Position numbers and translations under genes: made by a program. A model generated the notes under the pieces. The model was not told the DNA's origin. It did no database searches and saw only the letters and a list, made by a program, of their open reading frames with translations. From positions 1,800,001-1,832,000 of the forward strand of contig NZ_CP011304.1 in the NCBI RefSeq assembly GCF_000981785.2: a stretch of 32,000 bases of DNA, read 5' to 3'. Below are positions 1 to 29,661 of the stretch, in pieces (position 1 is the stretch's first letter; every line of letters starts with the position of its first letter). This DNA is from Microcystis aeruginosa NIES-2549. Lineage in GTDB: Bacteria > Cyanobacteriota > Cyanobacteriia > Cyanobacteriales > Microcystaceae.

Positions 1-1091
1 AGGAAAAACTGACTCAAATTGCTCAAGCGGAGCAAAATCTGGCAGCACTCAGAAGAACCTTAAATTTACAAAGAGAAGAGAAACTGACTCAAGTTGCCCA
101 AGCCAAACAACAGTTAGAGGATAGCAACACCGCTTATAATTTAGCAGAATTGCGCTTACAAAAAGCCTTGAGGGAAGTCGAACGTTACCAGAATCTTTTC
201 CATAATGGGGTGATAGCGGAAGTTCGGGTCGTTGAACAGGAAAATATCGCCGATGAAAGACAAAGTATTTGGAAGCAAAGTCAAGCAGATATTGAGCAAG
301 CCAGACTGCGATTAGAAGAGCAGAAAAGCAGTTATGAGAGAATTGTTAATCAAGGGAAGGCGGATATTGAGCAAGCGGAGTTACGATTAATCGAACAAAA
401 GAGGATTTATCAGAGAATTGTTAATCAAGGGGAAGCGGACATTGAGCAAGCGAAGTTGCGTTTAGCCGAGCAAGAGAATAGTGTTCAAACCCTTACTCAT
501 GCGGGGGAAATTGCTCTGTCTAAAATTCAAGAACAGCTAAAAAGTTTGGATAGCCAAATCAGTAGTCTTAAATCTGAGGTGACGCAAACAAAGAAAGAAA
601 TTGATTCTTTGAAGTTTGAGTTAGAGAAACGGATTGTTAGAGCCCAAGAAGGAGGCACTATTTTTAGTTTGCCGATTACTGGGGTGGGAGATGTGGTACA
701 ACAAGGAGGAATGATTGTAGAAATAGCGCCCCAAAAAGCGGATATTTTATTGAAAGCAGAAATGGCCACTACACAAAGTGGTTCATTACAGAAAGGAATG
801 GCGGTTAAGATGAAGTTTGATGCTTATCCTTTTCAGGACTATGGGGTAGTTGATGGAAGTTTAATTAAAATTTCCCCAACCACCAAAATGCAAGAAACAT
901 CTCAGGGACGAGTAGCAATTTATGAACTAGAAATTGAGTTAAATAAAACTTGTATTCCTAGTGGAAATGACTGTATTCCATTACGTCCGGGAGATACGGC
1001 TACGGCTGAGGTGGTGGTGCGTCAGCGTCGCGTTATTGATTTTATTCTTGACCCATTCAAGAAGTTACAAAAAGGAGGTTTAGAATTTTAG
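1..1091 (+). CDS. HlyD-family membrane-fusion/periplasmic adaptor protein, 5' end cut by the window edge
   Basis: The frame of the listed ORF 150..1091 stays open back to nt 3 (EKLTQIAQAEQNL...), so the gene starts upstream of the window. A long coiled coil is followed by a beta-rich C-terminus (GGMIVEIAP, LRPGDTATAEVVV), as in type I secretion adaptors. Confidence 0.8.
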   Translation, partial: EKLTQIAQAEQNLAALRRTLNLQREEKLTQVAQAKQQLEDSNTAYNLAELRLQKALREVERYQNLFHNGVIAEVRVVEQENIADERQSIWKQSQADIEQARLRLEEQKSSYERIVNQGKADIEQAELRLIEQKRIYQRIVNQGEADIEQAKLRLAEQENSVQTLTHAGEIALSKIQEQLKSLDSQISSLKSEVTQTKKEIDSLKFELEKRIVRAQEGGTIFSLPITGVGDVVQQGGMIVEIAPQKADILLKAEMATTQSGSLQKGMAVKMKFDAYPFQDYGVVDGSLIKISPTTKMQETSQGRVAIYELEIELNKTCIPSGNDCIPLRPGDTATAEVVVRQRRVIDFILDPFKKLQKGGLEF

Positions 1092-1170
1092 AAAGCTTTT
1101 GTTCGAGGGCCTGTCATTCCCGCGAATTGCGGGAATCCATAAAAATGTTTTGATTACCCGGAGAAAGATT

Positions 1171-1908
1171 ATGTCACAATCTGTTGCCATTACTGCTGAA
1201 GATATTCTGAAACAAGTTAAGCTATCTCTTCAAATTCCCGATATAATCGAGTCTATTATTAGTCGTCAGATTATTACTGATGCAGCTACGGAAGCCGGGA
1301 TAACTGTGGATAATGAGGAACTTCAGCAAGCGGCGGATACTCTTAGACTTCTTCAGAAACTTCGTGGCGTACAAGAAACTTTTGCTTGGCTAGAGAAACA
1401 CCATTTGTCTGTTGATGATTTAGAAGAAATTGCCTACATCACCGTTATTTCCGAAAAGTTGATGACTCATCTATTTGCCGAGAAAGTTGAGCCTTACTTT
1501 TATGAAAATCAATTAGATTATACTGGGGTAGTGATGTATGAAGTGGTGTTAGACGATGAAGATTTAGCGATGGAATTGTTTTATTCTATTCAGGAAGAGG
1601 AAATGAGTTTCTATGATGTAGCTCACCAATATATTCAGGATGTAGAATTGCGTCGCCAAGGAGGATATCGGGGAATATTGTCTCGTAAGGATTTGAAACC
1701 AGAGATTTCTGCGGCTGTTTTTGCGACGACACCACCAGAAGTTCTTAAACCGATTGTGACTTCTAAGGGAGTGCATTTGATTTTGGTGGAGGAGATCCTT
1801 CAGTCCGAGTTAGATAATAAGTTACGCTGTCAAATTGTTTCAGAGTTGTTTGGCGAGTGGGTTATCAATCAAATTGAGTCAGTGTCAGTTGTCACCAATT
1901 TGGGATGA
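1171..1908 (+). CDS. PpiC/parvulin-type peptidyl-prolyl cis-trans isomerase (SurA-like N-terminal region)
   Basis: ATG at 1171 is preceded by GGAGAAAG. The C-terminal parvulin signature is GGYRGILSRKDLKPEISAAVF...VLKPIVTSKGVHLILVEEI. The gene follows the HlyD gene by 80 nt. Confidence 0.75.
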   Translation: MSQSVAITAEDILKQVKLSLQIPDIIESIISRQIITDAATEAGITVDNEELQQAADTLRLLQKLRGVQETFAWLEKHHLSVDDLEEIAYITVISEKLMTHLFAEKVEPYFYENQLDYTGVVMYEVVLDDEDLAMELFYSIQEEEMSFYDVAHQYIQDVELRRQGGYRGILSRKDLKPEISAAVFATTPPEVLKPIVTSKGVHLILVEEILQSELDNKLRCQIVSELFGEWVINQIESVSVVTNLG

Positions 1909-1924
1909 ATAGCACTAACACGAA

Positions 1925-1958
1925 TATCATCCAGTCAGGTCAACCTAACTGGATGATA
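1925..1958. terminator. Hairpin between the convergent PPIase and peptide genes
   Basis: 11-bp perfect inverted repeat TATCATCCAGT / ACTGGATGATA with a 12-nt loop, located between the stop at 1908 (+) and the stop at 2012 (-). Confidence 0.5.
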
Positions 1959-2011
1959 GAGATATTTTAGTAAAAACTGGGCTAGTTTCTTAACAAGAAC
2001 CTGGAGTTTTT

Positions 2012-2197
2012 CTAATCCCAACAAATAGAGATAGAGCGCCATCTGGTTGTTTTATTTTGCCAACAAATAGTGATAGAACCACCGCCACCTAATGTATCAA
2101 GCATTTCCGAATCGGTCAAGTCAGTAAGGTAACTCTCAGAATCGGAGAACAAATCTGCACCAGCAGGACGTAAATCAGAAATAGTAATGTTAGCCAT
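2012..2197 (-). CDS. Double-glycine-leader (bacteriocin/RiPP-type) precursor peptide, 61 aa
   Basis: Translation MANITISDLRPAGADLFSDSESYLTDLTDSEMLDTLGG|GGSITICWQNKTTRWRSISICWD. It has an acidic leader with L(-15), L(-12), E(-8), M(-7) and GG(-2,-1), and a Ser/Thr/Cys/Trp-rich core. GAGGA lies 9 nt upstream of the ATG. HlyD and PPIase genes are adjacent. Confidence 0.8.
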   Translation of the reverse strand: MANITISDLRPAGADLFSDSESYLTDLTDSEMLDTLGGGGSITICWQNKTTRWRSISICWD

Positions 2198-2328
2198 TTT
2201 CGGTTCCTCTTGGAATAAGTTTTACTTTGAGGTAATCAGATTAATTATGCTCTTCCTTTCCCTATGATTATTATTGTTGCCTAACTCTCAAATAATGACA
2301 ATAGCTTGAGCAACTTTAAGGTTCATCT

Positions 2329-2347
2329 AACTAGCACAATTATGTCT
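2329..2347. promoter_or_regulatory. Conserved motif copy 1 (AACTAGCACAATTATGTCT), upstream of the peptide gene
   Basis: Perfect 19-nt repeat of 2439..2457. The core ACACAATTATGT is a 10/12 palindrome. The minus strand reads AGACATAATTGTG, containing a CATAAT -10-like hexamer. Confidence 0.4.
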
Positions 2348-2438
2348 CAAATTCACCGACCAAAACACCGTAATTTCATGTAGATTATGACCGCAAATTC
2401 CCATGATTTCGTATCACCGAGCTTTGTTTTTGAGACAG

Positions 2439-2457
2439 AACTAGCACAATTATGTCT
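2439..2457. promoter_or_regulatory. Conserved motif copy 2 (AACTAGCACAATTATGTCT)
   Basis: Identical to copy 1 and exactly 110 nt away. The flanking sequence is unrelated. Confidence 0.4.
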
Positions 2458-2568
2458 TTTTTATATCTCTCTCCCCTGGGTTCGGGTGGTGGCGGGTCAA
2501 AAAAATAGCCCTATGCCCTAATGAGACTAAACTTTAGCGATGGGCCGATCGCTACTTTATTTTAAGAT

Positions 2569-2581
2569 AGGCGATAAGCCT
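2569..2581. repeat. 13-nt direct repeat AGGCGATAAGCCT (left copy)
   Basis: Exact copy at 3260..3272. The two copies bracket the two small ORFs at 2642..3254. Confidence 0.6.
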
Positions 2582-2641
2582 GACGGCATAGCGACCCTTA
2601 CCGCTTTTTGTTATAGTAAGATGGCTAGTTAAACAAATCAC

Positions 2642-3004
2642 ATGAGTGGTATTAACAGAGAAATATATCTAGAAAACCGAACCAGTCTGATTGACAAACA
2701 TTTACCCGAAACCGAAAAATCCCAAAGAGAACTGGAAATCGAAGGAATCGTCTATTTGTTTAACAATCGCCAGACAATGGAGAGAGTGGCAGAGGAAATT
2801 AAGCAAAGAGGAGAGAGAACGGGAGCAGCAGATTCAGAAGACAAATACGAACGCTATGGATTATTTTTTGCCGAACCAATTGGGTATATCCTAAAATTAG
2901 ATGGAACGAGAATCCCTCTCCACTATGGAGAAATAAAAATAAAAAAAAGCACAGGAAAATATCATGTCATACCTCGTACCAGACCGCGCACCACAAAATC
3001 CTGA
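2642..3004 (+). CDS. Hypothetical protein, 120 aa
   Basis: ORF with charged, non-repetitive composition. It overlaps the next ORF by 41 nt and contains an A8 run at 2941-2948. No family recognised. Confidence 0.45.
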   Translation: MSGINREIYLENRTSLIDKHLPETEKSQRELEIEGIVYLFNNRQTMERVAEEIKQRGERTGAADSEDKYERYGLFFAEPIGYILKLDGTRIPLHYGEIKIKKSTGKYHVIPRTRPRTTKS

Positions 3005-3254
3005 AAACGCAAAAACGCAAATTACGCCAACAGAAAAAACACAATGGGAATTTGCCGAAATCTGGGTAGATCCTTGGCTTTCACCCCCCTATATTCTGAT
3101 GTTAGTTAAAGAACAATCCGGTAAATTCTCGATTCAAAATCCCGCACAAAACTATCAATCTATCTTTACCAGCGATACTTACGAAGAAAGTCTTATGTGG
3201 TTACTGGAAGATGAATATGAGCGAGTCACAGGTCGCTTTTGCCAACCAGAGTAA
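2964..3254 (+). CDS. Hypothetical protein, 96 aa
   Basis: ORF in the +1 frame relative to 2642..3004. Its frame is open from 2943, immediately inside the A8 run. No family recognised. Confidence 0.45.
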   Translation: MSYLVPDRAPQNPENAKTQITPTEKTQWEFAEIWVDPWLSPPYILMLVKEQSGKFSIQNPAQNYQSIFTSDTYEESLMWLLEDEYERVTGRFCQPE

Positions 3255-3259
3255 AAGCA

Positions 3260-3272
3260 AGGCGATAAGCCT
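3260..3272. repeat. 13-nt direct repeat AGGCGATAAGCCT (right copy)
   Basis: Exact match to 2569..2581. Confidence 0.6.
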
Positions 3273-3286
3273 ATTTTACCCGAAAA

Positions 3287-3392
3287 AGAAACCCGGTTTC
3301 TGAGTCTCCGAGTTCTGCGCCAAGAAAGAAACCGGGGTTTTTTCTATGCTTTACCCAGAATAACTCAGGAAAATAGTAAAAACCCGGTTTCT
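3287..3392. repeat. Cluster of three near-palindromic 15-mers (AGAAACCCGGTTTCT type)
   Basis: AGAAACCCGGTTTCT at 3287-3301, a variant AGAAACCGGGGTTTTTT at 3327-3343, and AAAAACCCGGTTTCT at 3378-3392. All lie just downstream of the 3' end of the HopA1-like gene. Confidence 0.7.
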
Positions 3393-3407
3393 GATTTTCT
3401 CTTAGCA

Positions 3408-4511
3408 TCAGCTTGCCAACTCTAATCCCTGATAAACATCCTCAGAATCAGCATTCAAATAAGGACGCTGCCAATCAATCCCCAACCCAGAAAACTGCTC
3501 AGAAATAGCAGCAATCCGACCCGCCGCAGAATTGTCCTCCTGTTGCCAAGCCATCAACAACCCATTGGCTATAATCTGACAGCGATTCATCCCAAAACTT
3601 TCCTCACTGCCAAACTTTTTGTCCGGTTCCTCCGCTAACCCCAATCCCGGTGCTAACTCCAGAGTAAATAAAGGTATTTCAGGCTTAAAAACAGACTGAT
3701 TCTGCTGATAAACATTAGCCACAACCTGCCTGACCAACTCATAATCTGTTTTGCCAAAATAAAGCACCCCAGCATCATACCGTTGATAATCAACCGGATT
3801 ATACAAAGCCTTAAAACTAAAAGGAATGCCCCTCTCATTTAACCTTTCAGTCAACCCAGCCATCACAGCCACCGCACCTTCAGGAGTAACATTAAAATAG
3901 AGCCGCACCATCGCTTCCTCTCTCTGTAAACCGGCATTACCCACCGCCATATAAAAGCCATTTTGCACCAAATTCTTAGGCATCAAAATTGACACAACAT
4001 CCCCCACAGCCGCCGCTTTTTCAGACTCTTGAAGATGCTTGTCCCGTTGGATATGCAGTCGCAAACCGCCCTTAGTCACAGCCAAACTGCCATCGGTTTC
4101 CTCTCTCAAAATTGACCAACCTGAATCAAAATATCCCTCCCCCTTGTTCGCTGCTTCCAACTGTAAATAAAAGTCCATAGCTACGCCAGCAAAACTATTA
4201 TTCTCCAAATCTAATTGCTGACCCTTATTCTCAGAACCTAATGCTTGCGATGCCTGCATTGACCCATTATAATAAATGCCATAAAGAAAACTCCGCAACT
4301 GTAAGCTCATATATTTATCCTGTATTTCCTTCGGTAAAGCCTGAATCCTAGACAACATCTCAGCAGGCAGTTCCCAGGGTTGATAATCAGGATGACGAAT
4401 CGAAAAATTAGCGGAAATTTCGACATTTTCAACAATATCTAACAAAACTTCCTTTAACCGACCTCTAACCTCAGGGGCTAAATGATGGAATTGAGAATTA
4501 AGTAATGACAT
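3408..4511 (-). CDS. HopA1-effector-family-like protein, 367 aa; candidate phospho-Ser/Thr lyase (LanX/TvaD-like)
   Basis: Long ORF 24 nt downstream of the kinase gene on the same strand. The segments VRLYFNV...GIPFSFKALYNPVDYQRYDAGVLYF match my recollection of proteins annotated 'T3SS effector HopA1 family'. This is recalled, not searched. Confidence 0.55.
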   Translation of the reverse strand: MSLLNSQFHHLAPEVRGRLKEVLLDIVENVEISANFSIRHPDYQPWELPAEMLSRIQALPKEIQDKYMSLQLRSFLYGIYYNGSMQASQALGSENKGQQLDLENNSFAGVAMDFYLQLEAANKGEGYFDSGWSILREETDGSLAVTKGGLRLHIQRDKHLQESEKAAAVGDVVSILMPKNLVQNGFYMAVGNAGLQREEAMVRLYFNVTPEGAVAVMAGLTERLNERGIPFSFKALYNPVDYQRYDAGVLYFGKTDYELVRQVVANVYQQNQSVFKPEIPLFTLELAPGLGLAEEPDKKFGSEESFGMNRCQIIANGLLMAWQQEDNSAAGRIAAISEQFSGLGIDWQRPYLNADSEDVYQGLELAS

Positions 4512-4535
4512 AATTTTTCAAGATACTCAACGATA

Positions 4536-5705
4536 TTAAACTTTGCCAACAACAGAAGAATTAATCTGATTTAACTGAGTAGCAGTAGCGCCAAAAATCG
4601 TGGGCATTGACGATTCAGGACGAGATAACAAAGCCTTGGCTACCTGAAGCATAGCAATCCCCGTATTATTAAAGGTTTTTTGATACTGAATCATTGCCAA
4701 AATCCCAATAATTAAAGAAAAACCAGCCAACTGTACCACTTGCTTTAAGAAATCAGGACGATATTCTAAGATTTCTGGGAAAGTTTCTAAATAAGCTAAA
4801 GTTAACCCACCGATAGATGGCTGCAGCAATTCTAGGGGAGTAGTGGCTAGTCGCAGAGACTCTTCAATACTGAGAGAATTACTAATCACCAAGCTACCCA
4901 ACCAAATTTGTAGATAACTAGCGATTGCCATTCCCAAATCAAATGCTGGATCTCCCCAATCAGACCTTTCCCAATCAATCAACCGGATCGCATTTCCATT
5001 AATATCTTCCCAGTTTCGATTCAGAAGAATATTATTCAGCTTGATGTCATTGTGAGTCAGACAAATAGGAGAAATAGTTTCACTGGCTCGATGAACTGCT
5101 TCTCCTAAGCTATCATATCGTTGATAAAGTGCAAAAAATTTCAATCCATCCATCGGAGCCATACCAAAAATTTCAGGACCGATCCTTTCCAAACTCTCTA
5201 ATAATAGCGGAGATACTTTCGGTTTTCCAGCAAACTCTTCTTTGACAAAAAATTCCCGATAAATACTCTGATTCCAGGTATCACGGTGAATTGTCGCCAA
5301 ACAACTGCCGATTTGAGTAGCAACCTGAGCCGGAAAGAGATTCTCTTTAGAATAAAACTCTGCTAAATCCTGATAATTATCCAGATAAGTAGAAACTAAA
5401 ATTGAGTTATCAGCATCGTGGAGCAGTAATTCTGGCAGAAAACTACGCCAATGGTCAATTTCAGGAAAGTTCTCTAGAAATTTGGGGATTCGCCATTCCC
5501 CAAAAAACTCACCCACCGTTTCCTTTTCTAAATTAATAAATTGTTCTTGTTTAACCAGTAACTTTCGCCCCTCTGGTAAAGTCACTAATAAGTTAAAATT
5601 TTTAGCCTGAATCTGCTCTACTCCCGGATTTTCTTGTGAGCGATCGCAGATTTTTTGGTCGATTAAATAGTCATAAACATTTTGAGAACTTAACACAAAT
5701 TTCAT
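4536..5705 (-). CDS. APH-fold (aminoglycoside-phosphotransferase-like) kinase, about 389 aa
   Basis: Brenner/catalytic-loop motif LTHNDIKLNNILL and the Mg-binding region IDWERSDWGDPAFDLG. I prefer the ATG at 5705 (MKFVLSS...) over the TTG at 5723 in the track. Confidence 0.8.
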   Translation of the reverse strand: MKFVLSSQNVYDYLIDQKICDRSQENPGVEQIQAKNFNLLVTLPEGRKLLVKQEQFINLEKETVGEFFGEWRIPKFLENFPEIDHWRSFLPELLLHDADNSILVSTYLDNYQDLAEFYSKENLFPAQVATQIGSCLATIHRDTWNQSIYREFFVKEEFAGKPKVSPLLLESLERIGPEIFGMAPMDGLKFFALYQRYDSLGEAVHRASETISPICLTHNDIKLNNILLNRNWEDINGNAIRLIDWERSDWGDPAFDLGMAIASYLQIWLGSLVISNSLSIEESLRLATTPLELLQPSIGGLTLAYLETFPEILEYRPDFLKQVVQLAGFSLIIGILAMIQYQKTFNNTGIAMLQVAKALLSRPESSMPTIFGATATQLNQINSSVVGKV

Positions 5706-5810
5706 AATTACAATTATTCTCAAATATCGCTGATCTGTTTTTATTGATTTTAATTATAATTGATGATAGCCTTATTGCCAAGCTATTCATCTGCATTAAA
5801 AAAACATAAT

Positions 5811-5826
5811 TAACACAATTATGTCT
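5811..5826. promoter_or_regulatory. Conserved motif copy 3 (TAACACAATTATGTCT), upstream of the kinase/HopA1-like operon
   Basis: 15/17 identity with copies 1 and 2, in the same orientation relative to the downstream minus-strand gene. It lies about 105-120 nt upstream of the ATG at 5705. Confidence 0.4.
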
Positions 5827-5901
5827 AAACTTCAACTAATCGCGCCAGTCAACCTACCTGTTAGATTGGTTTAGGGCTAATTGCGATCGCTCCATAGACA
5901 A

Positions 5902-5916
5902 AGAAACCGGGTTTCT
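5902..5916. repeat. 15-mer AGAAACCGGGTTTCT, exact reverse complement of 3287..3301
   Basis: Direct comparison of the two 15-mers. Together they bracket the kinase/HopA1-like cassette. Confidence 0.7.
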
Positions 5917-5965
5917 CCACAGGGACAAGGCGGCTTTTGCTGCCTTTCATAAATTCGGTAAGTAT

Positions 5966-6364
5966 GTGGTACAGTTTCGTTATGATTGGTTTTTAAAAGT
6001 CCCTTTTGCCGATCGATTATTTATGGCGAGATTTTTGCATCGATCGATCCCAAAATCAGAAAGAATTGCTTTTTTAGAAGATTTTTTAGCGGCAGATTAC
6101 GAGGCCGCCCTAGGCACAATTTATACATCTGTGAGTAAAAAAGCAGTGGAAATTATGCCGGGTAAATTTGCCGAGATTAAAATACCAACTCTTTTAGTAT
6201 CAGGGGAAAAAGACATTATTATCCCTGCCAAAATGGGTAAAATGGCGGCGGATTTGAATAATAATATCCAGTATGTGGAGATGGCTAATACCGCTCACTT
6301 TCCCATGTTAGAAGATGCCCCTACTTATCTACAAAAATTGCGAGATTTTTTAGAAATTAATTAG
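5966..6364 (+). pseudogene. C-terminal remnant of an alpha/beta-fold hydrolase (nucleophile-elbow half missing)
   Basis: The 132 aa include the Asp region (LLVSGEKDIIIP) and the catalytic His region (NTAHFPMLE), but no GxSxG half exists upstream. The frame stays open upstream into the 15-mer repeat at 5902-5916. Confidence 0.6.
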
Positions 6365-9121: not shown

Positions 9122-10420
9122 TTAAATTCTCGTAATCGGTAAACGTAGCCAATCACTTAACTGCTGTGCCAACCAATCTAATTCGGCTTCGCTAACATCT
9201 TCACTGGCAGTGATAATATATTCTCGATGGTTGGCAACGAGAACCAGAGAAGGAGGAATAATATTAACATTTTCTCCCTGCATAGTGACAGTGACATTGC
9301 GACGAATGAGACTATAAATTTCCCAACTAGCGGCATCGGCAGTTAGTTTAAATTTCAGCCCCCAGAGTTTTTGATAGAGAGAAACTTTTTTGGGGGTAAT
9401 TTTTAACTCTAGTTCCCCCTGCCAAAAAGATTTCCATAACTGCCAAGATAAACTAGAGGAGATTAAATTGAGCAGAAAAATTAGGATAATCGGGATTAAA
9501 AAAGCGACCAGTTTCAGATCATAAATACCGACTATAGTTAAGAGAATGATCGTAAAAAATAGGGATGGTAAAAACTGTCTTAACTGGGTTTTGAGATTGT
9601 TGAAAAACTTTTGTTTGGTTTTACTAGCTATTTTTATTTCTAGGAGATTATCTGTTTTATAAACAGTAACTTCGCTGCCGTAGGGTTTGGTCAGATTACC
9701 AATAGATACTAAGATCAATTGACAACTATATAAGCTGGCTAAAGCTTCTGTCACCGAACGAAAATGAGAGTCGGGGTGGGAGTTTGATAATCTTTTTAAC
9801 CAATAGATGAAAAAAGCGCTTAGATTAGTTTTTTGCTCAAAGTTTTCGGGTATGTAACGATGCTTAATCCCCGTGGCTAAACTGATCAAAGTTTTGCCTA
9901 TATCCTGTAAGTCGGTGGTGGGAGAATCGGAATCAAAGGCAAAATCAACTAGATAAAAACGATGGGACTGGGTATCCAAGAGGATATTACTAAGTTTAAT
10001 ATTGCCGTGGTTAATGGGGAAATCCTGCTGATGGAGATAGGAGAGAATCTCCAAAAGATATTTGGCAATTTGTTTGAGATCTTGTTCTGCTAATAAATAA
10101 CTGGAGTTAAGATAGTTTTCTAAAGGCTGCGCCGATAAATAAGGTCGGACAATAGCGATGATTTGTTCCTGGGATGAATCTATCTCAAAGCTATCGAGGT
10201 ATTTGGGGAGAGATGGGTGAGAGAGTTGTCGCAACAGGGCAATTTTACTGGTTATTTCTCCGATAAACTGATTTCCTTGCCCCCTAGGAACAGAAATAAG
10301 TTTAATGATAACTAACTGGGTGGTGTGTCTGTCCCTCGCTAAGATTGTTTTTTTTCCCAGTAACTGTTGGACTTGATAACGACTATGGAGAACTTGATCG
10401 AGCATGGGCGAGGATAGCAT
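9122..10420 (-). CDS. Membrane-anchored protein with a degenerate Ser/Thr-kinase-like N-terminal domain (predicted pseudokinase)
   Basis: Kinase-like fold with HGNIKLSNILLD in place of HRDxKxxN and DFA in place of DFG. There is no glycine-rich loop (LGKKTILARD). Two hydrophobic helices (LPSLFFTIILLTIVGIY, LVAFLIPIILIFLLNLI) are followed by a roughly 110-aa C-terminal domain. Confidence 0.7.
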   Translation of the reverse strand: MLSSPMLDQVLHSRYQVQQLLGKKTILARDRHTTQLVIIKLISVPRGQGNQFIGEITSKIALLRQLSHPSLPKYLDSFEIDSSQEQIIAIVRPYLSAQPLENYLNSSYLLAEQDLKQIAKYLLEILSYLHQQDFPINHGNIKLSNILLDTQSHRFYLVDFAFDSDSPTTDLQDIGKTLISLATGIKHRYIPENFEQKTNLSAFFIYWLKRLSNSHPDSHFRSVTEALASLYSCQLILVSIGNLTKPYGSEVTVYKTDNLLEIKIASKTKQKFFNNLKTQLRQFLPSLFFTIILLTIVGIYDLKLVAFLIPIILIFLLNLISSSLSWQLWKSFWQGELELKITPKKVSLYQKLWGLKFKLTADAASWEIYSLIRRNVTVTMQGENVNIIPPSLVLVANHREYIITASEDVSEAELDWLAQQLSDWLRLPITRI

Positions 10421-12243: not shown

Positions 12244-14061
12244 TTATCTACGAACTAAATTTTTAAGAGTTCTAGGGTTAGCTATTTTCCATGTTCCCTC
12301 GTCATTTTCAAGATTATAGCGAACTAATAAGGTACTTAAACCACTATTTTTTTGATCAATTTTACCCTGATTGTTATAGAGGGTTCTTTCTTCAGTAACC
12401 ACCACATCCACTGTAGCTTGATCGCCAGAGGATGTAAAATTATTAACTGAATCTATTCTCTGAACTCCATAGATATAATAAGCACTATTATTAGCTAACC
12501 ATTCGGAAGAACTTTCTTGACCATCAGAGCTTTTTATTTTGTCATTATAAGCTTTACCTGTAAGTAATTCTTCTCCTAAATAGGTTTGATAGGAAGGACC
12601 AAAAATATCTCTTTTTGCCTTTAACCAGCGCTCGATTAAATCCACCGCTTCTGAACGAGAAATAGAGTTAACTGTCTGTTGAGGAACAGGTGAATAGACG
12701 GTTTCAGGACTGGGAGAATAGACAGTTTCAGGACTAGGTGAGGTATCGATGACACCTTGGGTAATTTTAACTTGATTAAAGTATTTAATTAGTTGCCTTT
12801 GTAAATCTTGAGCGCGATTTAAGTCACTAAAAGTTGCTACCTGAATATTACCATCATTAACAAAAGCATCGCGACAAAAGTTATTTTTAACTCTCTCTAA
12901 ACTATCCTCATCAGTTACTACAACTTTATAGTAAGTATCGGTGATATTCTCATCCCCACAGACAGATTTAGGAAACTCATTATTGATGGTAATATCTGAG
13001 TCTTGATTCTCTGGGGAAGGTGACGGAGAAATTGACTCATCTCCAGAAGAATTTGAGAGATAATAACTTAAGACAAAACCACCTAAAATGCCAGTACCGA
13101 TCATACTCCCTATAATTATTGCTTTCACCCATTCAGGTAAAGTGCGGGGATTAGAAACAGGTTTTGAAGTTACAGGAGAAATTACCTGAGTAGGAGTGGG
13201 AGGAGTGGGGATAACGATATTTGTTGCTACAATTGATGGGGGAGTTTGTAGCACCTCCAACATCTCTTTTGCAGTTAAATAACGTTCGTTAGAGCGCGGT
13301 GAAATAGTTTTATCTAGCACGGCTGCTAAACTGATATTAGTATCTAAAGCGAACTGCCGCCAATAAATTTTTCCTGTCATCGGATCGCTCTCTAACATTT
13401 CAGGAGTTTTGCCAGTTAGTAGATAAATAGCCGTCAATCCTAAAGCGTAGAGATCACTACTATAAACCGGACGACCGATCGCTTGTTCTGATGGCATAAA
13501 ACCTGGAGTACCGATAACAATAGAATTAAGAGAATGGCCCGAATTAGAAACCACTGTTCCCATAGTTTCTTTAACCGCACCGAAATCAATTAGGATCGGT
13601 AAATTATCATAAATCCGTAGAATGATATTATCGGGTTTTATATCTCGATGGATAATTTTTTGTCCGTGAACATAAATTAAAACCTGTAGAATACTAACTA
13701 AAATCTCTTTGACTTGATCATCGCTAAAAACTCCTTTACTCTGTATTCTTTGGCTGAGAGTTTCTCCCTCGATAAATTCCTCGACTAAATAAAATTGATT
13801 ATTTTCCTCAAAATAAGCGTATAGTTTGGGAATTTGAGGACTATTTTCGCTCAATTTTTCCAGGATAGCGGCTTCTCGCTCAAACCTTTCTTTGACAAGA
13901 TTGTGAACCTGGGGATTATCATTAATCGGTTTTAGCTGTTTAATCAGACAGAGACGTTTTGAAGGCATTTGGCTATCTTCTGCCAAAAAAGTCTCTCCGA
14001 AACCACCATCGGCAATTAATCGCAAGACTTTGTAACGATTTTGTAGAATTAAATCCGTCAT
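12244..14061 (-). CDS. Ser/Thr protein kinase with one TM helix and a C-terminal ARC6/DUF4101-like domain
   Basis: Canonical motifs GGFGETFLA, HRDIKPDNIIL, DFG and PGFMPSEQ. It has a Pro/Ser/Thr linker, a TM helix (AIIIGSMIGTGILGGFVL) and a tandem SPSPETVY repeat. Confidence 0.85.
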   Translation of the reverse strand: MTDLILQNRYKVLRLIADGGFGETFLAEDSQMPSKRLCLIKQLKPINDNPQVHNLVKERFEREAAILEKLSENSPQIPKLYAYFEENNQFYLVEEFIEGETLSQRIQSKGVFSDDQVKEILVSILQVLIYVHGQKIIHRDIKPDNIILRIYDNLPILIDFGAVKETMGTVVSNSGHSLNSIVIGTPGFMPSEQAIGRPVYSSDLYALGLTAIYLLTGKTPEMLESDPMTGKIYWRQFALDTNISLAAVLDKTISPRSNERYLTAKEMLEVLQTPPSIVATNIVIPTPPTPTQVISPVTSKPVSNPRTLPEWVKAIIIGSMIGTGILGGFVLSYYLSNSSGDESISPSPSPENQDSDITINNEFPKSVCGDENITDTYYKVVVTDEDSLERVKNNFCRDAFVNDGNIQVATFSDLNRAQDLQRQLIKYFNQVKITQGVIDTSPSPETVYSPSPETVYSPVPQQTVNSISRSEAVDLIERWLKAKRDIFGPSYQTYLGEELLTGKAYNDKIKSSDGQESSSEWLANNSAYYIYGVQRIDSVNNFTSSGDQATVDVVVTEERTLYNNQGKIDQKNSGLSTLLVRYNLENDEGTWKIANPRTLKNLVRR

Positions 14062-23789: not shown

Positions 23790-25350
23790 TGTCTTGCTGC
23801 TGCGGTTAGTTTTTTGATTTTGACATACTCCCACCGTCAAGCTACGCTGTGACGGGGGATTCTTTCCAGATCACTATCGGAAATTCCTTGTTCAACGAGA
23901 CAGCTTAGATTCTCAATGTCTCCACTGAAAATCCAGAGGCCGGACTCTCCCAAGGCGTTTGGGTCGGTTTCTGTTTGCCCAACAGTACCGTTGAGATGAT
24001 TTCCCAAATATTTCAACCCTTTTTTAAGAATATTTATTGCTGCATTATGATCCCTATCTAAGACTGTTTGACAATTAGGACATTGATGAGTTCTAGTGCT
24101 TAAGGTTTTTTGAACTCTCGTCCCACAAACTGAACAATCTTGAGAAGTGAAATGCGGTGGTACAGCAACACAAACAATCCGATAAATCTTAGCAAAATAA
24201 TTCAACCATTCAGTGAATTGATACCAAGAAGCATCGGAAATCGACTTAGATAGCTTACGGTTTTTGACTAAGTTTCTTACCTTTAAAGCTTCATAGACTA
24301 CCAGATCATTAGACTGGACTAACGCCAAAGCGTCTTTAATTGCTTTGTCTTTACGTTGTCTTGATACTTTAAGATGAAGCTTGGCTACCTTTACCCGTTG
24401 CTTATGATAGTTTTTAGACTGTTTCTTTCCTTTACGGAATTTCTTAGATAATCGTCGTTGTGCTTTTTGAAGTCGTTTTTCTGACTTTCTTAAATAACGT
24501 GGATTCTCTACAGTATTACCTTGAGCATCGGTATAAAATTCCTTTAACCCTAAGTCAATTCCTGTTATTTGTCCCGTCGGTTTATGGTATTCTTGCCGTT
24601 CTACGTCAATCAGAAACTGGCAATAATAACCGTCAGCACGTCTAACAACTCTTACCCGTCTAATCTGTTGTTCTGAATAATAAACTAAGGTCTTTTGACT
24701 ACACCATAAATCAAATTCTCCTGCTTTAAAGCCATCAGTAAATCTGATTTTACGTCGATCATCAGATAGTTTGTAGCCTGTTAGTTTATACTCAACATCT
24801 CGACTTCGCTCGACGTTGACCCTGAGCGAAGCCGAAGGGTCAACCGAACGACTATGCTTTTTGAACCGAGGAAAACCCTTTTTCCCAAGTATCTTAGCAT
24901 GACAATTCTGGTAAAACCGATTAATTGATTGCCAGGCTCTATCAGCAGCCGATTGACGAGCTTGAGAGTTTAATTTATTAACCCAAGGTGTCTCTTTATT
25001 GTTAGCTAGTACCGAGCAAAGTTTTTGGAGATCATTGCGGGTTGTACCCTTATGATCCATCCAATAACGAACACAAGAGTTACGCACAAACTGAGATGTT
25101 CTAATTGCTTCATCAAGCCGGTGATATTGCTCTAGTGTCCCGTTTTTTAGCTTTGCTTCTACGACTAGCATCTAACAATTCTCGACCATTGGTTAAGTAG
25201 ATTATAACACAGTTTGTCCACAGATGGTGGAATTAAACCGATACTCCGTTGCTGACCCTTCGACTTCGCTCAGGGTCATTGATATTCTGGTCGGATTTCA
25301 TCCCCCGCTAATTTTTGTGAGTATCTTATCGAAAAATGTAGCGGGGGTAT
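23790..25350 (-). mobile_element. TnpB-only IS200/IS605-family (IS1341-group-like) element; boundaries approximate
   Basis: A tnpB ORF with no tnpA. Subterminal hairpins lie on both sides: CCCCGTCA...TGACGGTGGG at about 23836-23865, and CCCCCGCTA...TAGCGGGGG at 25302-25348. An extended -10 box TGTTATAAT on the minus strand (25201-25209) precedes the ATG. Confidence 0.6.
23837..25171 (-). CDS. tnpB: RNA-guided endonuclease TnpB (IS605 OrfB family)
   Basis: RuvC-like motifs GIDLGLK, VVYEAL and RDHNAAINIL, plus the zinc ribbon CSVCG...CPNC. The N-terminus MLVVEAKLKNG...AIRTSQFVRNSCVRYW is typical of the family. Confidence 0.88.
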   Translation of the reverse strand: MLVVEAKLKNGTLEQYHRLDEAIRTSQFVRNSCVRYWMDHKGTTRNDLQKLCSVLANNKETPWVNKLNSQARQSAADRAWQSINRFYQNCHAKILGKKGFPRFKKHSRSVDPSASLRVNVERSRDVEYKLTGYKLSDDRRKIRFTDGFKAGEFDLWCSQKTLVYYSEQQIRRVRVVRRADGYYCQFLIDVERQEYHKPTGQITGIDLGLKEFYTDAQGNTVENPRYLRKSEKRLQKAQRRLSKKFRKGKKQSKNYHKQRVKVAKLHLKVSRQRKDKAIKDALALVQSNDLVVYEALKVRNLVKNRKLSKSISDASWYQFTEWLNYFAKIYRIVCVAVPPHFTSQDCSVCGTRVQKTLSTRTHQCPNCQTVLDRDHNAAINILKKGLKYLGNHLNGTVGQTETDPNALGESGLWIFSGDIENLSCLVEQGISDSDLERIPRHSVA

Positions 25351-27692: not shown

Positions 27693-28394
27693 TTAGACAG
27701 CAAATAGTTGTAAAAATTCTTTGAGTTCATTTAATACCTCATGCTCAAAGTTCCAAATATGACGTTTGTTTTTCATAACATAATCAAATCCATTCATACT
27801 GCATTTCCTGCCAGCTTGTTTTTTGTCTTCTGTGGAACAGGTATCAAATCGTAAATAGTTACTAATCCAAAACTTATCAAAATCTTTGTCTTTAATCGAT
27901 TTTTCTTGCTTGTTTAAACAATTTCTCCAGTCTTCTAAACAATCCGCATAGGTGGAATCTTGATTTTTAATCTTCTTGAGAACTGTTTCTAGTTCTCCTT
28001 GTCCTTCCACATTGGTAAAATAACAAGCAAATTCTGTGATTTGATCTTCTATTGTTGTCAATCTATAAAGCTGACTGGTTTCCCTAATATCTTCCGCTTC
28101 TGGATACACCTTTTTCAGACAATCATTAAGCCAATTTAGTCGCTCTGTCTTAGTATCAGAATCTTGATCGATAATAATACCAACTTTAGGGATAGCTTTT
28201 TTACCAAGAGTCGCCTTAATTTCATCGAAAGTGCTGGTTAATTTAGCTTTATCTAAACCCTGTAAACATTTATAGTCATCTTCCTCAAAGCAAATCGGTT
28301 TATCTAACTGAATTTTGTTAATATTTAAGTATTTTACTAGGGCTTCGATAAAAATTTTATCATTCTTGCTCTCGACGATTAATAAGTTACTCAC
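27693..28394 (-). CDS. TOPRIM-like small protein (DUF4435/DUF3226-like), partner of the upstream ATPase
   Basis: N-terminal LLIVESKNDKIFIEAL (conserved Glu) and VGIIIDQDSD (DxD-type acidic cluster). The start overlaps the ATPase stop by 8 nt. Confidence 0.6.
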   Translation of the reverse strand: MSNLLIVESKNDKIFIEALVKYLNINKIQLDKPICFEEDDYKCLQGLDKAKLTSTFDEIKATLGKKAIPKVGIIIDQDSDTKTERLNWLNDCLKKVYPEAEDIRETSQLYRLTTIEDQITEFACYFTNVEGQGELETVLKKIKNQDSTYADCLEDWRNCLNKQEKSIKDKDFDKFWISNYLRFDTCSTEDKKQAGRKCSMNGFDYVMKNKRHIWNFEHEVLNELKEFLQLFAV

Positions 28395-29481: not shown

Positions 29482-29661
29482 GTTGACCTCTGGGCTGAAT
29501 AAGCATAAACTTAGGGTTAGGAATAAAGCTGGCAAGATAGGGATTTTTTTACTTAATTCTAGACGAGAATTGCCTCCAACTCTGAAAACGGTGACTATCC
29601 CCCACCGAAACTGCCGCCCTAAGAGATAATAGAAACAGGGATTTATTTACATTTCTTCATC

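What the first reader, a model, noticed from the sequence alone, without database searches (positions are those of the whole stretch)
1..5965. Candidate lanthipeptide-like (class V / thioamitide-style dehydration) RiPP locus in a cyanobacterium
Seen in the sequence: a HlyD adaptor and a parvulin PPIase converge on a 61-aa double-glycine-leader peptide whose core is rich in Ser, Thr and Cys. About 1.2 kb away, a two-gene operon (24-nt gap) encodes an APH-fold kinase (HNDIKLNN, DWERSDWGDPAFDLG) and a 367-aa protein that I read as HopA1-effector-like. Established knowledge: an APH-like kinase plus a HopA1-like phospholyase is the split dehydratase of class V lanthipeptides (LanK/LanX, together with a LanY cyclase) and of thioamitides (TvaC/TvaD). 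These systems are described essentially from Actinobacteria. Inference: here the pair would phosphorylate and eliminate Ser/Thr in the peptide core to give Dha/Dhb, which the two Cys residues could attack. Export and leader removal would be handled by a C39-peptidase ABC transporter expected upstream of the window. No LanY, LanC or LanD-like gene is visible here, so the cyclisation chemistry would be spontaneous, encoded elsewhere, or new.
Basis: partly seen in the sequence, partly recalled or inferred. Interest (0 to 1): 0.88.

Follow-up and report, generated by a model that had tools for sequence, protein, structure and literature searches.

The report
Cyanobacterial kinase–lyase modified-peptide gene cluster
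This Microcystis locus is a real but already catalogued type of gene cluster in which a kinase and a HopA1-type lyase probably turn Ser/Thr of a secreted peptide into dehydro-residues; no product of the cyanobacterial family has yet been isolated.

Summary
The 367-aa protein is a full-length HopA1/LanY-family protein (Pfam 3.5e-66) and keeps all four residues shown to matter in CaoY. The adjacent APH-fold kinase has intact catalytic motifs. The link to the peptide and export genes is real. In 80 cyanobacterial species loci the kinase is next to HopA1 in 80, and 78 of 81 sequences (80 loci plus the window) carry peptides with this 38-aa double-glycine leader. Most peptide genes lie between HopA1 and a convergent PPIase–HlyD–C39-ABC–HTH operon. 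The predicted C39 transporter lies just upstream in near-identical Microcystis genomes. Peptide cores are enriched in Thr and Cys, and Ser/Thr lies 3–4 residues N-terminal to Cys about twice as often as in shuffled cores.

Three corrections apply. The kinase is only weakly LxmK-like. The locus type is not new: Eyles et al. 2021 ("Family 1A", 183 cyanobacterial clusters, Microcystis included) and Liang et al. 2022 ("type-B") described it by genome mining. No product has been characterised, and the window holds no LanC, LanD or LanX, so ring formation remains an inference. Verdict: a well-supported new member of a known, predicted family, of moderate interest.

The parts
1..1091 (+). 3' part (363 codons) of a HlyD-family type I secretion adaptor. 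The gene starts upstream of the window; orthologues are 564 aa.
   Evidence: The frame is open from position 3. TIGR01843 matches at 1e-38. It is 99% identical to the 564-aa protein in L019 and L001. An orthologue is present in 68 of 80 loci.
1099..1908 (+). Parvulin-type PPIase-like protein with a SurA-N-like domain plus a rotamase domain. The likely start is the ATG at 1171 (245 aa). No signal peptide is evident.
   Evidence: PF00639 matches at 3.8e-9. TIGR04500 'putative peptide maturation system protein' matches at 7e-19, below its cutoff. An orthologue is present in 72 of 80 loci at about 60-70% identity. It corresponds to 'SurA' of the cyanobacterial bacteriocin groups I/II/VI (PMC3140520).
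1925..1958 (.). 15-bp stem-loop between the convergent PPIase and precursor genes; terminator-like.
   Evidence: Consensus scan only; function not shown.
2012..2197 (-). Precursor peptide gene (61 aa). The leader is residues 1-38 (2197..2084), ending in GG. The predicted core is 23 aa (2083..2015): GGSITICWQNKTTRWRSISICWD, with a twin S-x-[ST]-x-C-W motif.
   Evidence: The leader HMM scores 1.1e-21, though the model was seeded with this sequence. The same leader is found in Raphidiopsis, Trichodesmium, Nostoc and others. Related cores occur in L019, L023 and L024. The leader family is listed in the supplement of Eyles 2021.
2264..2301 (-). Two overlapping weak promoter-like sites upstream of the precursor gene.
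   Evidence: 9 of 12 consensus matches; tentative.
2642..3254 (+). DUF6972 gene (2642-3004) and an overlapping 96-aa ORF (2964-3254). This is a Microcystis-specific insertion between HopA1 and the precursor gene and is not part of the conserved cluster.
   Evidence: PF22319 matches at 2e-43. The pair is found in 1 of 80 species loci and in Microcystis metagenome contigs L001-L008. It has no PADLOC or NCBIfam hit.
3408..4511 (-). HopA1-family (LanY-type) phospho-Ser/Thr lyase, 367 aa. Predicted catalytic residues are R203, K234, R244 and Y251.
   Evidence: PF17914 matches at 3.5e-66 over the full profile. The profile matches LxmY 9dk1_B at 1.9e-8 with the four residues aligned. All four are invariant in 22 orthologues. 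Their spacing equals that of CaoY R187/K219/R229/Y236 (PMC9486802). The top Foldseek hit is 9dk1_B at 9e-11, from a low-confidence model.
4536..5705 (-). APH-fold Ser/Thr kinase (LanK-like), 389 aa from the ATG at 5705. The longest ORF starts at a TTG at 5723. Its stop codon lies 24 nt upstream of the HopA1 start.
   Evidence: PF01636 matches at 7e-10. The best NCBIfam match is LxmK NF038156 at 1.7e-21, spanning the full length but below the cutoff. The VKQE Lys, HND220 and IDWE are conserved in all orthologues. It is adjacent to HopA1 in 80 of 80 loci.
5753..5781 (-). Promoter-like site (TTGGCA-17-TATAAT) about 50 nt upstream of the kinase start. It is a candidate promoter for the kinase-HopA1 operon.
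   Evidence: The best match in the region, 11 of 12. Consensus match only.

Best explanation
The region is the right-hand two thirds of a Microcystis copy of a widespread cyanobacterial RiPP cluster. The conserved gene order is HTH regulator, cNMP-binding/C39-peptidase ABC transporter, HlyD adaptor and parvulin-like protein on one strand. These converge on kinase, HopA1-type lyase and one or more precursor peptides on the other strand.

Proposed mechanism:
1. The conserved N-terminal half of the 38-aa leader (MANIxISDLxPxGxxLFxDSES[YF]L) recruits a kinase-lyase heterodimer. This step is inferred by analogy with LxmKY and CaoKY.
2. The APH-fold kinase phosphorylates Ser/Thr in the 23-aa core.
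3. The HopA1/LanY-type lyase eliminates phosphate, using R203, K234, R244 and Y251, to give Dha/Dhb. This is inferred from homology and conserved residues.
4. The two Cys residues then add to dehydro-residues without a dedicated cyclase. The most likely pairs are Ser3-Cys7 and Ser17-Cys21, or the cross-strand pairs Ser3-Cys21 and Ser17-Cys7. The rosin Lan ring forms this way with only RosK/RosY. This is the least secure step.
5. The standard double-glycine C-terminal half of the leader is cut by the C39 domain while the peptide is exported through the ABC/HlyD system. This follows from established knowledge of C39 transporters.

What is shown here: gene identities, catalytic-residue conservation, synteny and the core composition statistics. 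What is not shown: any of the chemistry.
For: Lyase:
- The profile matches LxmY (9dk1_B) at E = 1.9e-8, with R, K, R and Y aligned.
- The four residues are invariant in 22 orthologues and match in spacing the mutagenised CaoY residues.
- The three top Foldseek hits are LxmY chains.

Kinase: catalytic motifs are intact in all orthologues.

Synteny across 80 species loci:
- kinase 80, PPIase 72, HlyD 68, C39-ABC 67, HTH 56;
- leader-family peptides in 78 of 81 sequences searched, 170 peptides in all, with 0 hits in reversed controls;
- 135 of 169 peptide genes lie between HopA1 and the PPIase on the operon strand.

Cores:
- Thr is enriched 2.24-fold and Cys 3.37-fold.
- A Ser/Thr lies 2-5 residues N-terminal to a Cys in 66 of 73 Cys-containing cores, against 48.6 +/- 3.4 in shuffles (0 of 1000 shuffles reach 66).
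- The result holds at cluster level: 48.7 against 37.8 +/- 3.0, while the reverse order is at shuffle level. Offsets -3 and -4 are enriched about twofold.
- 38 cores have exactly one Cys, which an intramolecular disulfide cannot explain.
- The twin S-x-[ST]-x-C motif of this core is conserved in Microcystis, a tar-biofilm MAG and Trichodesmium, while the loop between the two motifs varies.

Literature:
- LanK/LanY dehydration has been reconstituted (PMC9486802).
- The LxmKY heterodimer structure has been solved (PMC12141560).
- Cyclase-free Lan formation has been reported (PMC12291118).
- The same cyanobacterial family was predicted as a RiPP family (PMC8153245).
Against: - No product from any cyanobacterial member is reported in the searched library.
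- 81 of 154 cores lack Cys, and Eyles et al. note that cores have no conserved Ser, Thr or Cys. Rings cannot therefore be the family's general outcome.
- The kinase is not specifically LxmK-like. It scores 76.7 bits against a cutoff of 315 and E = 0.56 against the LxmK chain.
- No LanC, LanD or LanX gene is in the window.
- Loci with a second pseudokinase/HopA1 pair are the ones enriched for multi-Cys cores (p = 5e-5). This hints that ring formation may need extra proteins that are absent here.
- In this genome a 1.2-kb opposite-strand insertion separates the precursor gene from the enzyme operon.
- The AlphaFold model is of low confidence (pLDDT 57.5).
Confidence: 0.62

Rival explanations
1. 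The peptide is dehydrated but not cyclised. The kinase/lyase pair installs Dha/Dhb, as in the best explanation. The mature product is then a linear dehydropeptide whose two Cys stay free or form a disulfide across a beta-hairpin (SITICW ... SISICW). Thioether rings are not the purpose of the system.
For: - More than half of the family's cores have no Cys, yet 152 of 154 have Ser/Thr, with 2.2-fold Thr enrichment. This suggests dehydration is the conserved chemistry.
- No cyclase gene is in the window.
- The alternating polar/hydrophobic pattern of both half-sites fits two beta-strands; this comes from reading the sequence directly.
Against: - The directional Ser/Thr-to-Cys spacing bias at -3 and -4 in Cys-containing cores is what thioether formation predicts. 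A disulfide does not predict it.
- 38 cores have a single Cys.
- Cys adds readily to Dha without an enzyme, and this is documented for rosin (PMC12291118).
Confidence: 0.2
2. The peptide is an unmodified class II-type, microcin-like double-glycine bacteriocin or signal peptide, handled only by the C39-ABC/HlyD/PPIase export module. The kinase/HopA1 pair would have a different role, such as producer immunity, regulation, or modification of another protein. It would be only loosely associated with the peptide.
For: - The same export module (long C39 ABC with cNMP-binding domains, HlyD and SurA) occurs in cyanobacterial bacteriocin groups defined without any kinase/HopA1 genes (PMC3140520).
- Many cores are hydrophobic and Gly/Ala-rich, like class II bacteriocins. 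[quoted passage not shown]
- Some Microcystis strains keep the pair and the peptide but have lost the export genes (L012-L016).
Against: - The kinase-HopA1-peptide order is conserved on one strand in most loci.
- In Raphidiopsis the peptide gene follows HopA1 directly.
- The leader carries a conserved roughly 24-aa N-terminal extension beyond an ordinary GG leader.
- Cores are enriched in Thr and Cys, with directional spacing.
- The lyase's catalytic residues are invariant.
Confidence: 0.1
3. The kinase/lyase pair acts on the leader rather than the core. Its target would be the conserved D-S-E-S-[YF] motif, for example to gate export or cleavage.
For: The Ser residues of DSES are conserved in 73-82% of leaders, whereas the cores have no conserved positions (PMC8153245).
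Against: - In all characterised LanK/LanY systems the leader is the docking element and the core is the substrate (PMC9486802, PMC12141560).
- A leader target does not explain the Thr enrichment or the Ser/Thr-Cys spacing in cores.
Confidence: 0.05

Closest known systems
Cyanobacterial HopA1/phosphotransferase RiPP-like clusters: 'Family 1A' of Eyles et al. 2021 (PMC8153245) and 'type-B' putative LanA of Liang et al. 2022 (PMC9486802)
   Same: The phylum is the same, and the leader family is the same (..DLxPxGxDLFxDSES[YF]L..GG). The supplement of Eyles et al. lists Microcystis aeruginosa peptides with this leader. Both have an adjacent HopA1/phosphotransferase pair and hypervariable cores.
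   Different: Nothing essential differs; this locus is a member of that family. This copy has a single precursor, a core with a twin S-x-[ST]-x-C-W motif, and a Microcystis-specific DUF6972 insertion. The published family is a bioinformatic prediction with no characterised product.
Class Va lanthipeptide systems: lexapeptide LxmK/Y/X/D, cacaoidin CaoK/Y/X/D and rosin RosK/Y/X/D (PMC9486802, PMC12141560, PMC12291118)
   Same: Both have a split dehydratase made of an APH-fold kinase and a HopA1-type lyase encoded side by side. The lyase Arg/Lys/Arg/Tyr set is conserved. The precursor is leader-dependent and has Ser/Thr/Cys in its core. In rosin, the Lan ring needs no dedicated cyclase.
   Different: Here there is no LanX kinase-fold cyclase and no LanD decarboxylase, so no AviMeCys is expected. 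There is no methyltransferase or LanJ. The leader is a double-glycine type cut by a C39 ABC exporter, and a parvulin-like protein is conserved in the cluster. The host is a Gram-negative cyanobacterium rather than an actinobacterium. The kinase is only distantly related to LxmK (E = 0.56 against 9dk1_A).
Thioamitides (TvaC/TvaD, TsaC/TsaD; PMC8153245)
   Same: The phosphotransferase plus HopA1-like pair is required for Ser/Thr dehydration.
   Different: No YcaO/TfuA thioamidation genes, no decarboxylase and no TvaE/TsaE-type second kinase are present in the window.
Cyanobacterial double-glycine bacteriocin clusters, groups I/II/VI of Wang, Fewer and Sivonen 2011 (PMC3140520)
   Same: The export module is the same: a long C39-peptidase ABC transporter with N-terminal cNMP-binding (CAP_ED) domains, HlyD and a SurA/rotamase protein, with GG-leader precursors nearby.
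   Different: That classification does not mention the kinase or the HopA1 protein in the text I could search (0 occurrences of 'kinase'). I could not establish which group this cluster was assigned to.
Prochlorosins / ProcM (class II lanthipeptides of marine cyanobacteria)
   Same: The logic is the same: one conserved leader, many hypervariable cores and one promiscuous modification enzyme set. This comparison rests on my own knowledge.
   Different: The enzyme family is entirely different. ProcM is a single LanM-type enzyme with its own cyclase domain, and the leader is of the Nif11/NHLP type.

Membership tests
LanK/LanY (class V-type) split dehydratase | A stand-alone PF17914 (HopA1-family) protein serving as the lyase | tested here: met
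   PF17914 matches at E = 3.5e-66, 222.7 bits against a cutoff of 22.7, over profile positions 1-170 of 170. The profile matches LxmY 9dk1_B at 1.9e-8. The top Foldseek hit is 9dk1_B at 9e-11.
LanK/LanY (class V-type) split dehydratase | Lyase residues equivalent to CaoY R187, K219, R229 and Y236 | tested here: met
   R203, K234, R244 and Y251 have the same 31-32/10/7 spacing. All four are invariant in 22 orthologues and align with R/K/R/Y of LxmY. The residue list comes from PMC9486802.
LanK/LanY (class V-type) split dehydratase | An adjacent PF01636 APH-fold kinase with intact catalytic motifs | tested here: met
   PF01636 matches at 7e-10. There is a 24-nt gap to HopA1. The VKQE Lys, HND and IDWE are conserved in all orthologues. 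The two genes are adjacent in 80 of 80 loci.
LanK/LanY (class V-type) split dehydratase | The kinase is an LxmK equivalog (NCBIfam NF038156) | tested here: not met
   LxmK is the best NCBIfam hit and spans the full length (residues 35-375 against model positions 21-344 of 347). It scores only 76.7 bits against a cutoff of 315. The reciprocal profile search against the LxmK chain 9dk1_A gives E = 0.56.
LanK/LanY (class V-type) split dehydratase | The kinase and lyase form a heterodimer that dehydrates the precursor | not testable with these tools
   This needs co-purification and mass spectrometry. No multimer prediction tool was available.
Class Va lanthipeptide (lanthidin) | LanX kinase-fold cyclase and LanD flavin-dependent Cys decarboxylase (AviMeCys formation) | tested here: not met
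   No second APH-like gene and no flavoprotein appeared among the ORFs of the 32-kb window that were scanned against Pfam: those of the finding region plus the longest non-overlapping ORF at each position elsewhere. Eight other loci carry a second kinase-like/HopA1 pair, but this locus does not. Genes elsewhere in the genome could not be examined.
Class Vb lanthipeptide | A LanC cyclase encoded with the LanK/LanY pair | tested here: not met
   There is no LanC-like hit in the window. None appeared among the recurrent gap ORFs of the 80 loci, although only the recurrent gap ORFs were profiled.
Lanthipeptide (any class) | (Methyl)lanthionine thioether cross-links in the mature product | not testable with these tools
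   Only indirect support is available: the Ser/Thr-to-Cys spacing bias.
Cyanobacterial HopA1-associated Family 1A (Eyles 2021) / type-B (Liang 2022) | Cyanobacterial host, a conserved double-glycine leader of this family, and an adjacent HopA1/phosphotransferase pair | tested here: met
   The finding region (window 1-6364) is 97.5-98.3% identical to the Microcystis ichthyoblabe chromosome. The leader HMM scores 1.1e-21. The leader motif DSESY occurs 71 times, alongside Microcystis entries, in the Eyles supplement. The type-B sequences themselves could not be read, because the figure is not held.
Thioamitide | YcaO/TfuA thioamidation genes | tested here: not met
   There are no YcaO or TfuA hits in the window.
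C39-transporter-dependent double-glycine peptide (Wang 2011 groups I/II/VI) | GG leader, C39-peptidase ABC transporter, HlyD and a rotamase protein in one cluster | tested here: met
   GG ends the leader in 150 of 155 family members. HlyD and the PPIase are in the window. The 904-aa transporter with cNMP-binding, C39, ABC-membrane and ABC-ATPase domains lies outside the window but directly upstream in near-identical relatives.

The most novel reading that the evidence does not exclude
A minimal lanthipeptide-like pathway without any dedicated cyclase. In Microcystis and many other cyanobacteria, a LanK/LanY-type pair, possibly helped by the cluster's conserved cytoplasmic parvulin-like protein, would be the only modification machinery for a very large set of hypervariable cores. 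About half of these cores, including this twin S-x-[ST]-x-C-W peptide, would yield thioether-bridged products through substrate-controlled cyclisation. The Cys-free half would yield linear Dhb/Dha-rich hydrophobic peptides, a product type with no characterised representative. The parvulin-like protein would then have a new role in RiPP maturation, either as a leader-binding chaperone or as a cyclisation aid.
Probability: 0.3. Interest if true: 0.7.

Novelty: new member of a known kind. Interest (0 to 1): 0.42.

Why it matters
The family is confined to cyanobacteria, including the main freshwater bloom formers, and it has been known from genome mining since 2021. No product, activity or ecological role has been reported for it.

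This Microcystis copy is a clean minimal test case. It has one precursor, one kinase and one lyase, and it has no cyclase, decarboxylase or tailoring genes. A three-gene co-expression would show whether the cyanobacterial pair really dehydrates peptides. It would also show whether rings form without a cyclase.

The comparative results here sharpen that experiment. They give the conserved seven-gene architecture, the directional Ser/Thr-Cys spacing, the association of pseudokinase paralogues with multi-Cys cores, and the predicted masses. As a discovery, however, the locus type is already in the literature.

Tried and rejected
- Exact-sequence lookup of the PPIase, to read upstream of the window, found nothing on record. 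I reached the upstream region through the 98%-identical HopA1 protein P0001 instead.
- The AlphaFold2 model of the HopA1 protein, built from a 22-sequence alignment, was poor (pLDDT 57.5, pTM 0.41). I use its Foldseek result only as corroboration.
- I tried to show that the kinase is specifically LxmK-like by sequence against the PDB. A single-sequence search and a 16-sequence profile both rank generic APH, choline and PsiK kinases above LxmK, which scores E = 0.56. I therefore dropped the claim that it is an LxmK orthologue.
- I did not predict the kinase structure.
- Literature searches for a characterised cyanobacterial LanK/LanY product found none.
- The DUF6972 gene and the 96-aa ORF have no PADLOC or NCBIfam match, so their function stays unknown.
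- I considered a housekeeping role for the pair, unrelated to peptides, because of its 60-70% identity across orders. I rejected this because 78 of 81 sequences carry leader-family peptides in operon position.
- I could not establish from the searchable text whether Wang 2011 'group II' included the kinase and HopA1 genes.
- The type-B alignment in the Liang 2022 supplement is a figure and is not held as text.

Full report

Yes.
- A HlyD-type frame is open from window position 3 to 1091 on the + strand.
- A parvulin-type gene lies at 1099-1908 on the + strand.
- A 61-aa ORF lies at 2012-2197 on the - strand.
- A 367-aa ORF lies at 3408-4511 on the - strand.
- An APH-like ORF ends at 4536 on the - strand. 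It is 389 aa from the ATG at 5705.

The kinase-HopA1 gap is 24 nt and the peptide lies 1210 nt beyond HopA1. The quoted motifs HNDIKLNN and DWERSDWGDPAFDLG are present.

Profile searches confirm the calls.
- The 367-aa protein matches PF17914 (HopA1) at E = 3.5e-66 across the whole profile.
- The kinase matches PF01636 (APH) at 7e-10. Its best NCBIfam family is the class V kinase LxmK (NF038156) at 1.7e-21 over its full length, but at 76.7 bits against a curated cutoff of 315.
- The PPIase matches PF00639 and, below threshold, TIGR04500 'putative peptide maturation system protein'.
- HlyD matches TIGR01843 at 1e-38.

**2. Source and what lies upstream**

The finding region (window 1-6364) is collinear with the Microcystis ichthyoblabe FBCC-A1114 chromosome at 97.5-98.3% nucleotide identity. 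The HopA1 protein is 98% identical to proteins from Microcystis MAGs.

In those relatives, a 904-aa transporter sits directly upstream of the 564-aa HlyD gene. It has cNMP-binding, C39-peptidase, ABC-membrane and ABC-ATPase domains. An HTH regulator gene lies beyond it.

**3. Are the enzyme pair and the peptide/export genes really linked?**

A scan of one genome per species found 557 stretches encoding relatives of the lyase. Counts in those loci:
- the kinase lies immediately upstream of HopA1 in 80 of 80;
- a PPIase orthologue is present in 72;
- HlyD is present in 68;
- the C39-ABC transporter is present in 67;
- the HTH gene is present in 56.

These four genes converge on the pair from 1-6 kb downstream. 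Many of the loci that lack them end at a contig boundary.

An iteratively built HMM of the leader found 170 peptides in 78 of 81 sequences searched (80 loci plus the window). It found none in reversed-sequence controls. Of the 169 peptide genes in the 80 loci, 135 lie between HopA1 and the PPIase on the kinase-HopA1 strand.

The ancestral layout is therefore kinase, HopA1 and one or more precursors on one strand. These converge on HTH, ABC, HlyD and PPIase on the other strand. The window has exactly this layout, except that a DUF6972 gene and an overlapping 96-aa ORF are inserted on the opposite strand. That insertion is found only in Microcystis.

I tested it, and it is not met.

**4. The peptide**

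The leader is about 38 aa, with consensus MANIKISDLRPAGAELFSDSESFLNELTDSELLSIKGG. The most conserved positions are M1, I4, L9, G13, L16-F17, D19-S-E-S22, L27 and the terminal GG.
- Its C-terminal half looks like an ordinary double-glycine export leader.
- Its N-terminal half is an additional conserved module. I infer this is the docking site for the modification enzymes, by analogy with the CaoK and LxmK leader binding described in PMC9486802 and PMC12141560.

The leader is almost identical between Microcystis and the Nostocales genus Raphidiopsis, while the cores are unrelated.

The predicted core here is GGSITICWQNKTTRWRSISICWD. It carries the motif S-x-[ST]-x-C-W twice. The same twin motif is found in M. 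ichthyoblabe (AGSITICWQDKTTRMRSISICWD), in a tar-biofilm MAG (AGSVSICFNTKKTRRISITICW) and in Trichodesmium erythraeum (KGSFTFCGKRISWSICWGY). The loop between the two motifs differs in these peptides, so the Ser/Thr and Cys positions are the constrained ones.

**5. Do the cores look like dehydratase or lanthionine substrates?**

The following figures are for 154 non-redundant cores.
- Thr is enriched 2.24-fold and Cys 3.37-fold relative to proteins of the same loci. Charged and amide residues are depleted.
- 152 cores contain Ser/Thr, but only 73 contain Cys.
- Among the Cys-containing cores, 66 have a Ser/Thr 2-5 residues N-terminal to a Cys. Shuffled cores give 48.6 +/- 3.4, and 0 of 1000 shuffles reach 66. 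Only 44 show the reverse order.
- 38 cores have exactly one Cys, which argues against an intramolecular disulfide as the general explanation.

After collapsing to 99 core clusters the result holds. The observed value is 48.7 of 54.7 against 37.8 +/- 3.0, and the reverse order is at shuffle level. The excess sits at offsets -3 (42 against 18.7) and -4 (34 against 17.8), with a further excess at +4.

This directionality is the usual lanthionine topology. The statistics therefore support Ser/Thr modification across the family and thioether formation in the Cys-bearing half. They do not prove either. The Cys-free half shows that ring formation cannot be what the family as a whole is for.

**6. Are the enzymes competent?**

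*Lyase.* Liang et al. showed that CaoY R187 and K219 are essential, that R229 contributes, and that Y236 is conserved (PMC9486802).
- The window protein has R203, K234, R244 and Y251 at matching spacing.
- All four are invariant in my 22-sequence alignment.
- All four align with the equivalent residues of LxmY in the crystal-structure chain 9dk1_B (E = 1.9e-8).
- 9DK1 is the LxmK/LxmY lexapeptide dehydratase heterodimer (PMC12141560).
- The AlphaFold model was poor (pLDDT 57.5). [quoted passage not shown]

*Kinase.* The ATP-binding Lys (VKQE), the catalytic HND and the IDWE motif are intact in all orthologues.

The kinase is not demonstrably an LxmK orthologue, however. A 16-sequence profile scores the LxmK chain at only E = 0.56, below generic APH-fold kinases. 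Its assignment as the partner kinase rests on three things: obligate adjacency (80 of 80 here, and 96% in the survey by Eyles et al.), the sub-threshold full-length NCBIfam hit, and its intact catalytic motifs.

**7. Cyclisation**

The ORFs of the 32-kb window that I scanned against Pfam gave no LanC, LanD, LanX, LanM or YcaO-type hit. The scan covered the ORFs of the finding region and the longest non-overlapping ORF at each position elsewhere. No such gene recurs in the gaps of the 80 loci either.

Two optional modules do recur elsewhere.
- About 15 loci have an aldo/keto-reductase together with a second PPIase paralogue.
- Eight loci have a second kinase/HopA1 pair at about 40% identity. 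Its kinase has lost the catalytic Asp (HNG or HNN).

All seven of the second-pair loci with retrieved peptides encode cores with two or more Cys, against 14 of the other 69 (Fisher p = 5e-5). This pseudokinase recalls LanX, the kinase-fold cyclase (PMC12291118), and may be a cyclase for particular cores.

The window and its three core relatives lack the second pair. If rings form here, they would form by substrate-controlled addition, as reported for the rosin Lan ring with only RosK/RosY present (PMC12291118). Alternatively, help could come from the parvulin-like protein or from a gene elsewhere in the genome.

**8. Comparison with what is known**

LanY is the HopA1 lyase, and LanX is the kinase-fold cyclase.

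More importantly, this kind of locus is already published.
- Eyles et al. 2021 found 1,340 HopA1 proteins, 96% of them with a phosphotransferase. They defined 'Family 1A' as 570 double-glycine-leader peptides in 183 clusters exclusive to Cyanobacteria, with variable cores.
- Their supplementary table contains this leader (71 occurrences of 'DSESY') and Microcystis aeruginosa entries.
- Liang et al. 2022 independently noted cyanobacterial 'type-B' LanA candidates.
- Wang et al. 2011 had described the export module as cyanobacterial bacteriocin groups I/II/VI.

I found no paper reporting a product from a cyanobacterial member.

The locus works like a class V system at the dehydration step. It fails the defining tests for class Va (no LanX or LanD) and for class Vb (no LanC). 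Whether it makes a lanthipeptide at all cannot be tested here.

**9. Verdict**

The locus is a new member of a known, bioinformatically predicted and experimentally uncharacterised family. Interest is moderate.

The locus type is not a discovery. It is a minimal and experimentally attractive test case for a very widespread cyanobacterial peptide family whose products are unknown. What this analysis adds is the quantified seven-gene synteny, the directional Ser/Thr-Cys spacing signal, and the association between pseudokinase paralogues and multi-Cys cores. All of these are computational and need experimental follow-up.

Noticed in passing
window 2642-3254 (+): A DUF6972 gene (120 aa, PF22319 2e-43) overlaps a 96-aa ORF by 41 nt. 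The pair sits on the opposite strand between HopA1 and the precursor gene. It is present only in Microcystis copies of the cluster: 1 of 80 species loci, plus the Microcystis metagenome contigs. It has no PADLOC or NCBIfam match. It may be a small two-gene mobile or toxin-antitoxin-like module.
   Followed up: partly
window 5966-6364 (+); L005 9584-10681; L012 12171-12785: The ORF flanking the kinase is only the C-terminal third of an alpha/beta hydrolase. Relatives carry a full 285-aa copy and a 74-aa rotamase fragment on the far side of the cluster. Some Microcystis strains (L012, L015) have lost HlyD and the ABC transporter, leaving a PPIase fragment next to the hydrolase fragment. These look like duplication and deletion scars around the cluster.
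   Followed up: partly
L017 1897-4178 (Arthrospira platensis PCC 7345); L018 8811-11095 (Raphidiopsis brookii D9): The kinase-HopA1 operon is 91.6% and 88% identical at the nucleotide level to the Microcystis copy, across cyanobacterial orders. Other genera are about 70-76% identical. This suggests recent horizontal transfer among bloom-forming cyanobacteria, or contamination of an assembly.
   Followed up: no
L031, L044/L045, L047, L049, L050, L060, L064 (e.g. L044 11748-14072): A second kinase/HopA1 pair (about 40% identity) lies between HopA1 and the PPIase. Its kinase paralogue has lost the catalytic Asp (HNG or HNN instead of HND). Every one of these loci with a retrieved peptide has a core with two or more Cys, often a C-x-C or CC motif (Fisher p = 5e-5). 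It is a candidate LanX-like kinase-fold cyclase.
   Followed up: partly
about 15 loci, e.g. L038 8458-10261: An aldo/keto-reductase-like protein (339 aa, PF00248 2e-6) and a second parvulin paralogue (251 aa) recur together in the gap. The associated cores are mostly long, hydrophobic and Ala/Gly-rich. The reductase might reduce dehydro-residues in the manner of LanJ, but this is speculation.
   Followed up: partly
several Nostoc loci, e.g. L027 12916-13143, L029 12970-13721, L030, L033, L039: A leader subfamily (MATIKIDNLSVTGSEFFSDSESYLDQLTELSE..KGG) is always followed by Thr at core position +1, with very hydrophobic, Ile/Val/Thr-rich cores such as TGVIIIIIII. A dehydrated N-terminal Thr would hydrolyse to a 2-oxobutyryl cap after leader removal.
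   Followed up: no
window 27693-29535 (-): An AAA-ATPase (382 aa) and a DUF3226 protein (233 aa) match the PADLOC models AbiLi (2e-60) and AbiLii / PDC-M38B. This is a likely AbiL-type anti-phage defence pair.
   Followed up: partly
window 23837-25171 (-): An IS605-family OrfB/TnpB-like gene with OrfB_IS605 and Cas12f1-like TNB domains.
   Followed up: no
window 9122-10420 (-) and 12244-14061 (-): Two eukaryotic-type Ser/Thr protein kinase genes; the second has a C-terminal ARC6-like IMS domain. They appear unrelated to the RiPP cluster.
   Followed up: no
L020 8486-9640 (Okeania sp. SIO2C9): The kinase orthologue contains an in-frame stop codon. In this locus the nearest leader peptides are about 9 kb from HopA1, so this may be a decaying copy of the cluster.
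   Followed up: no
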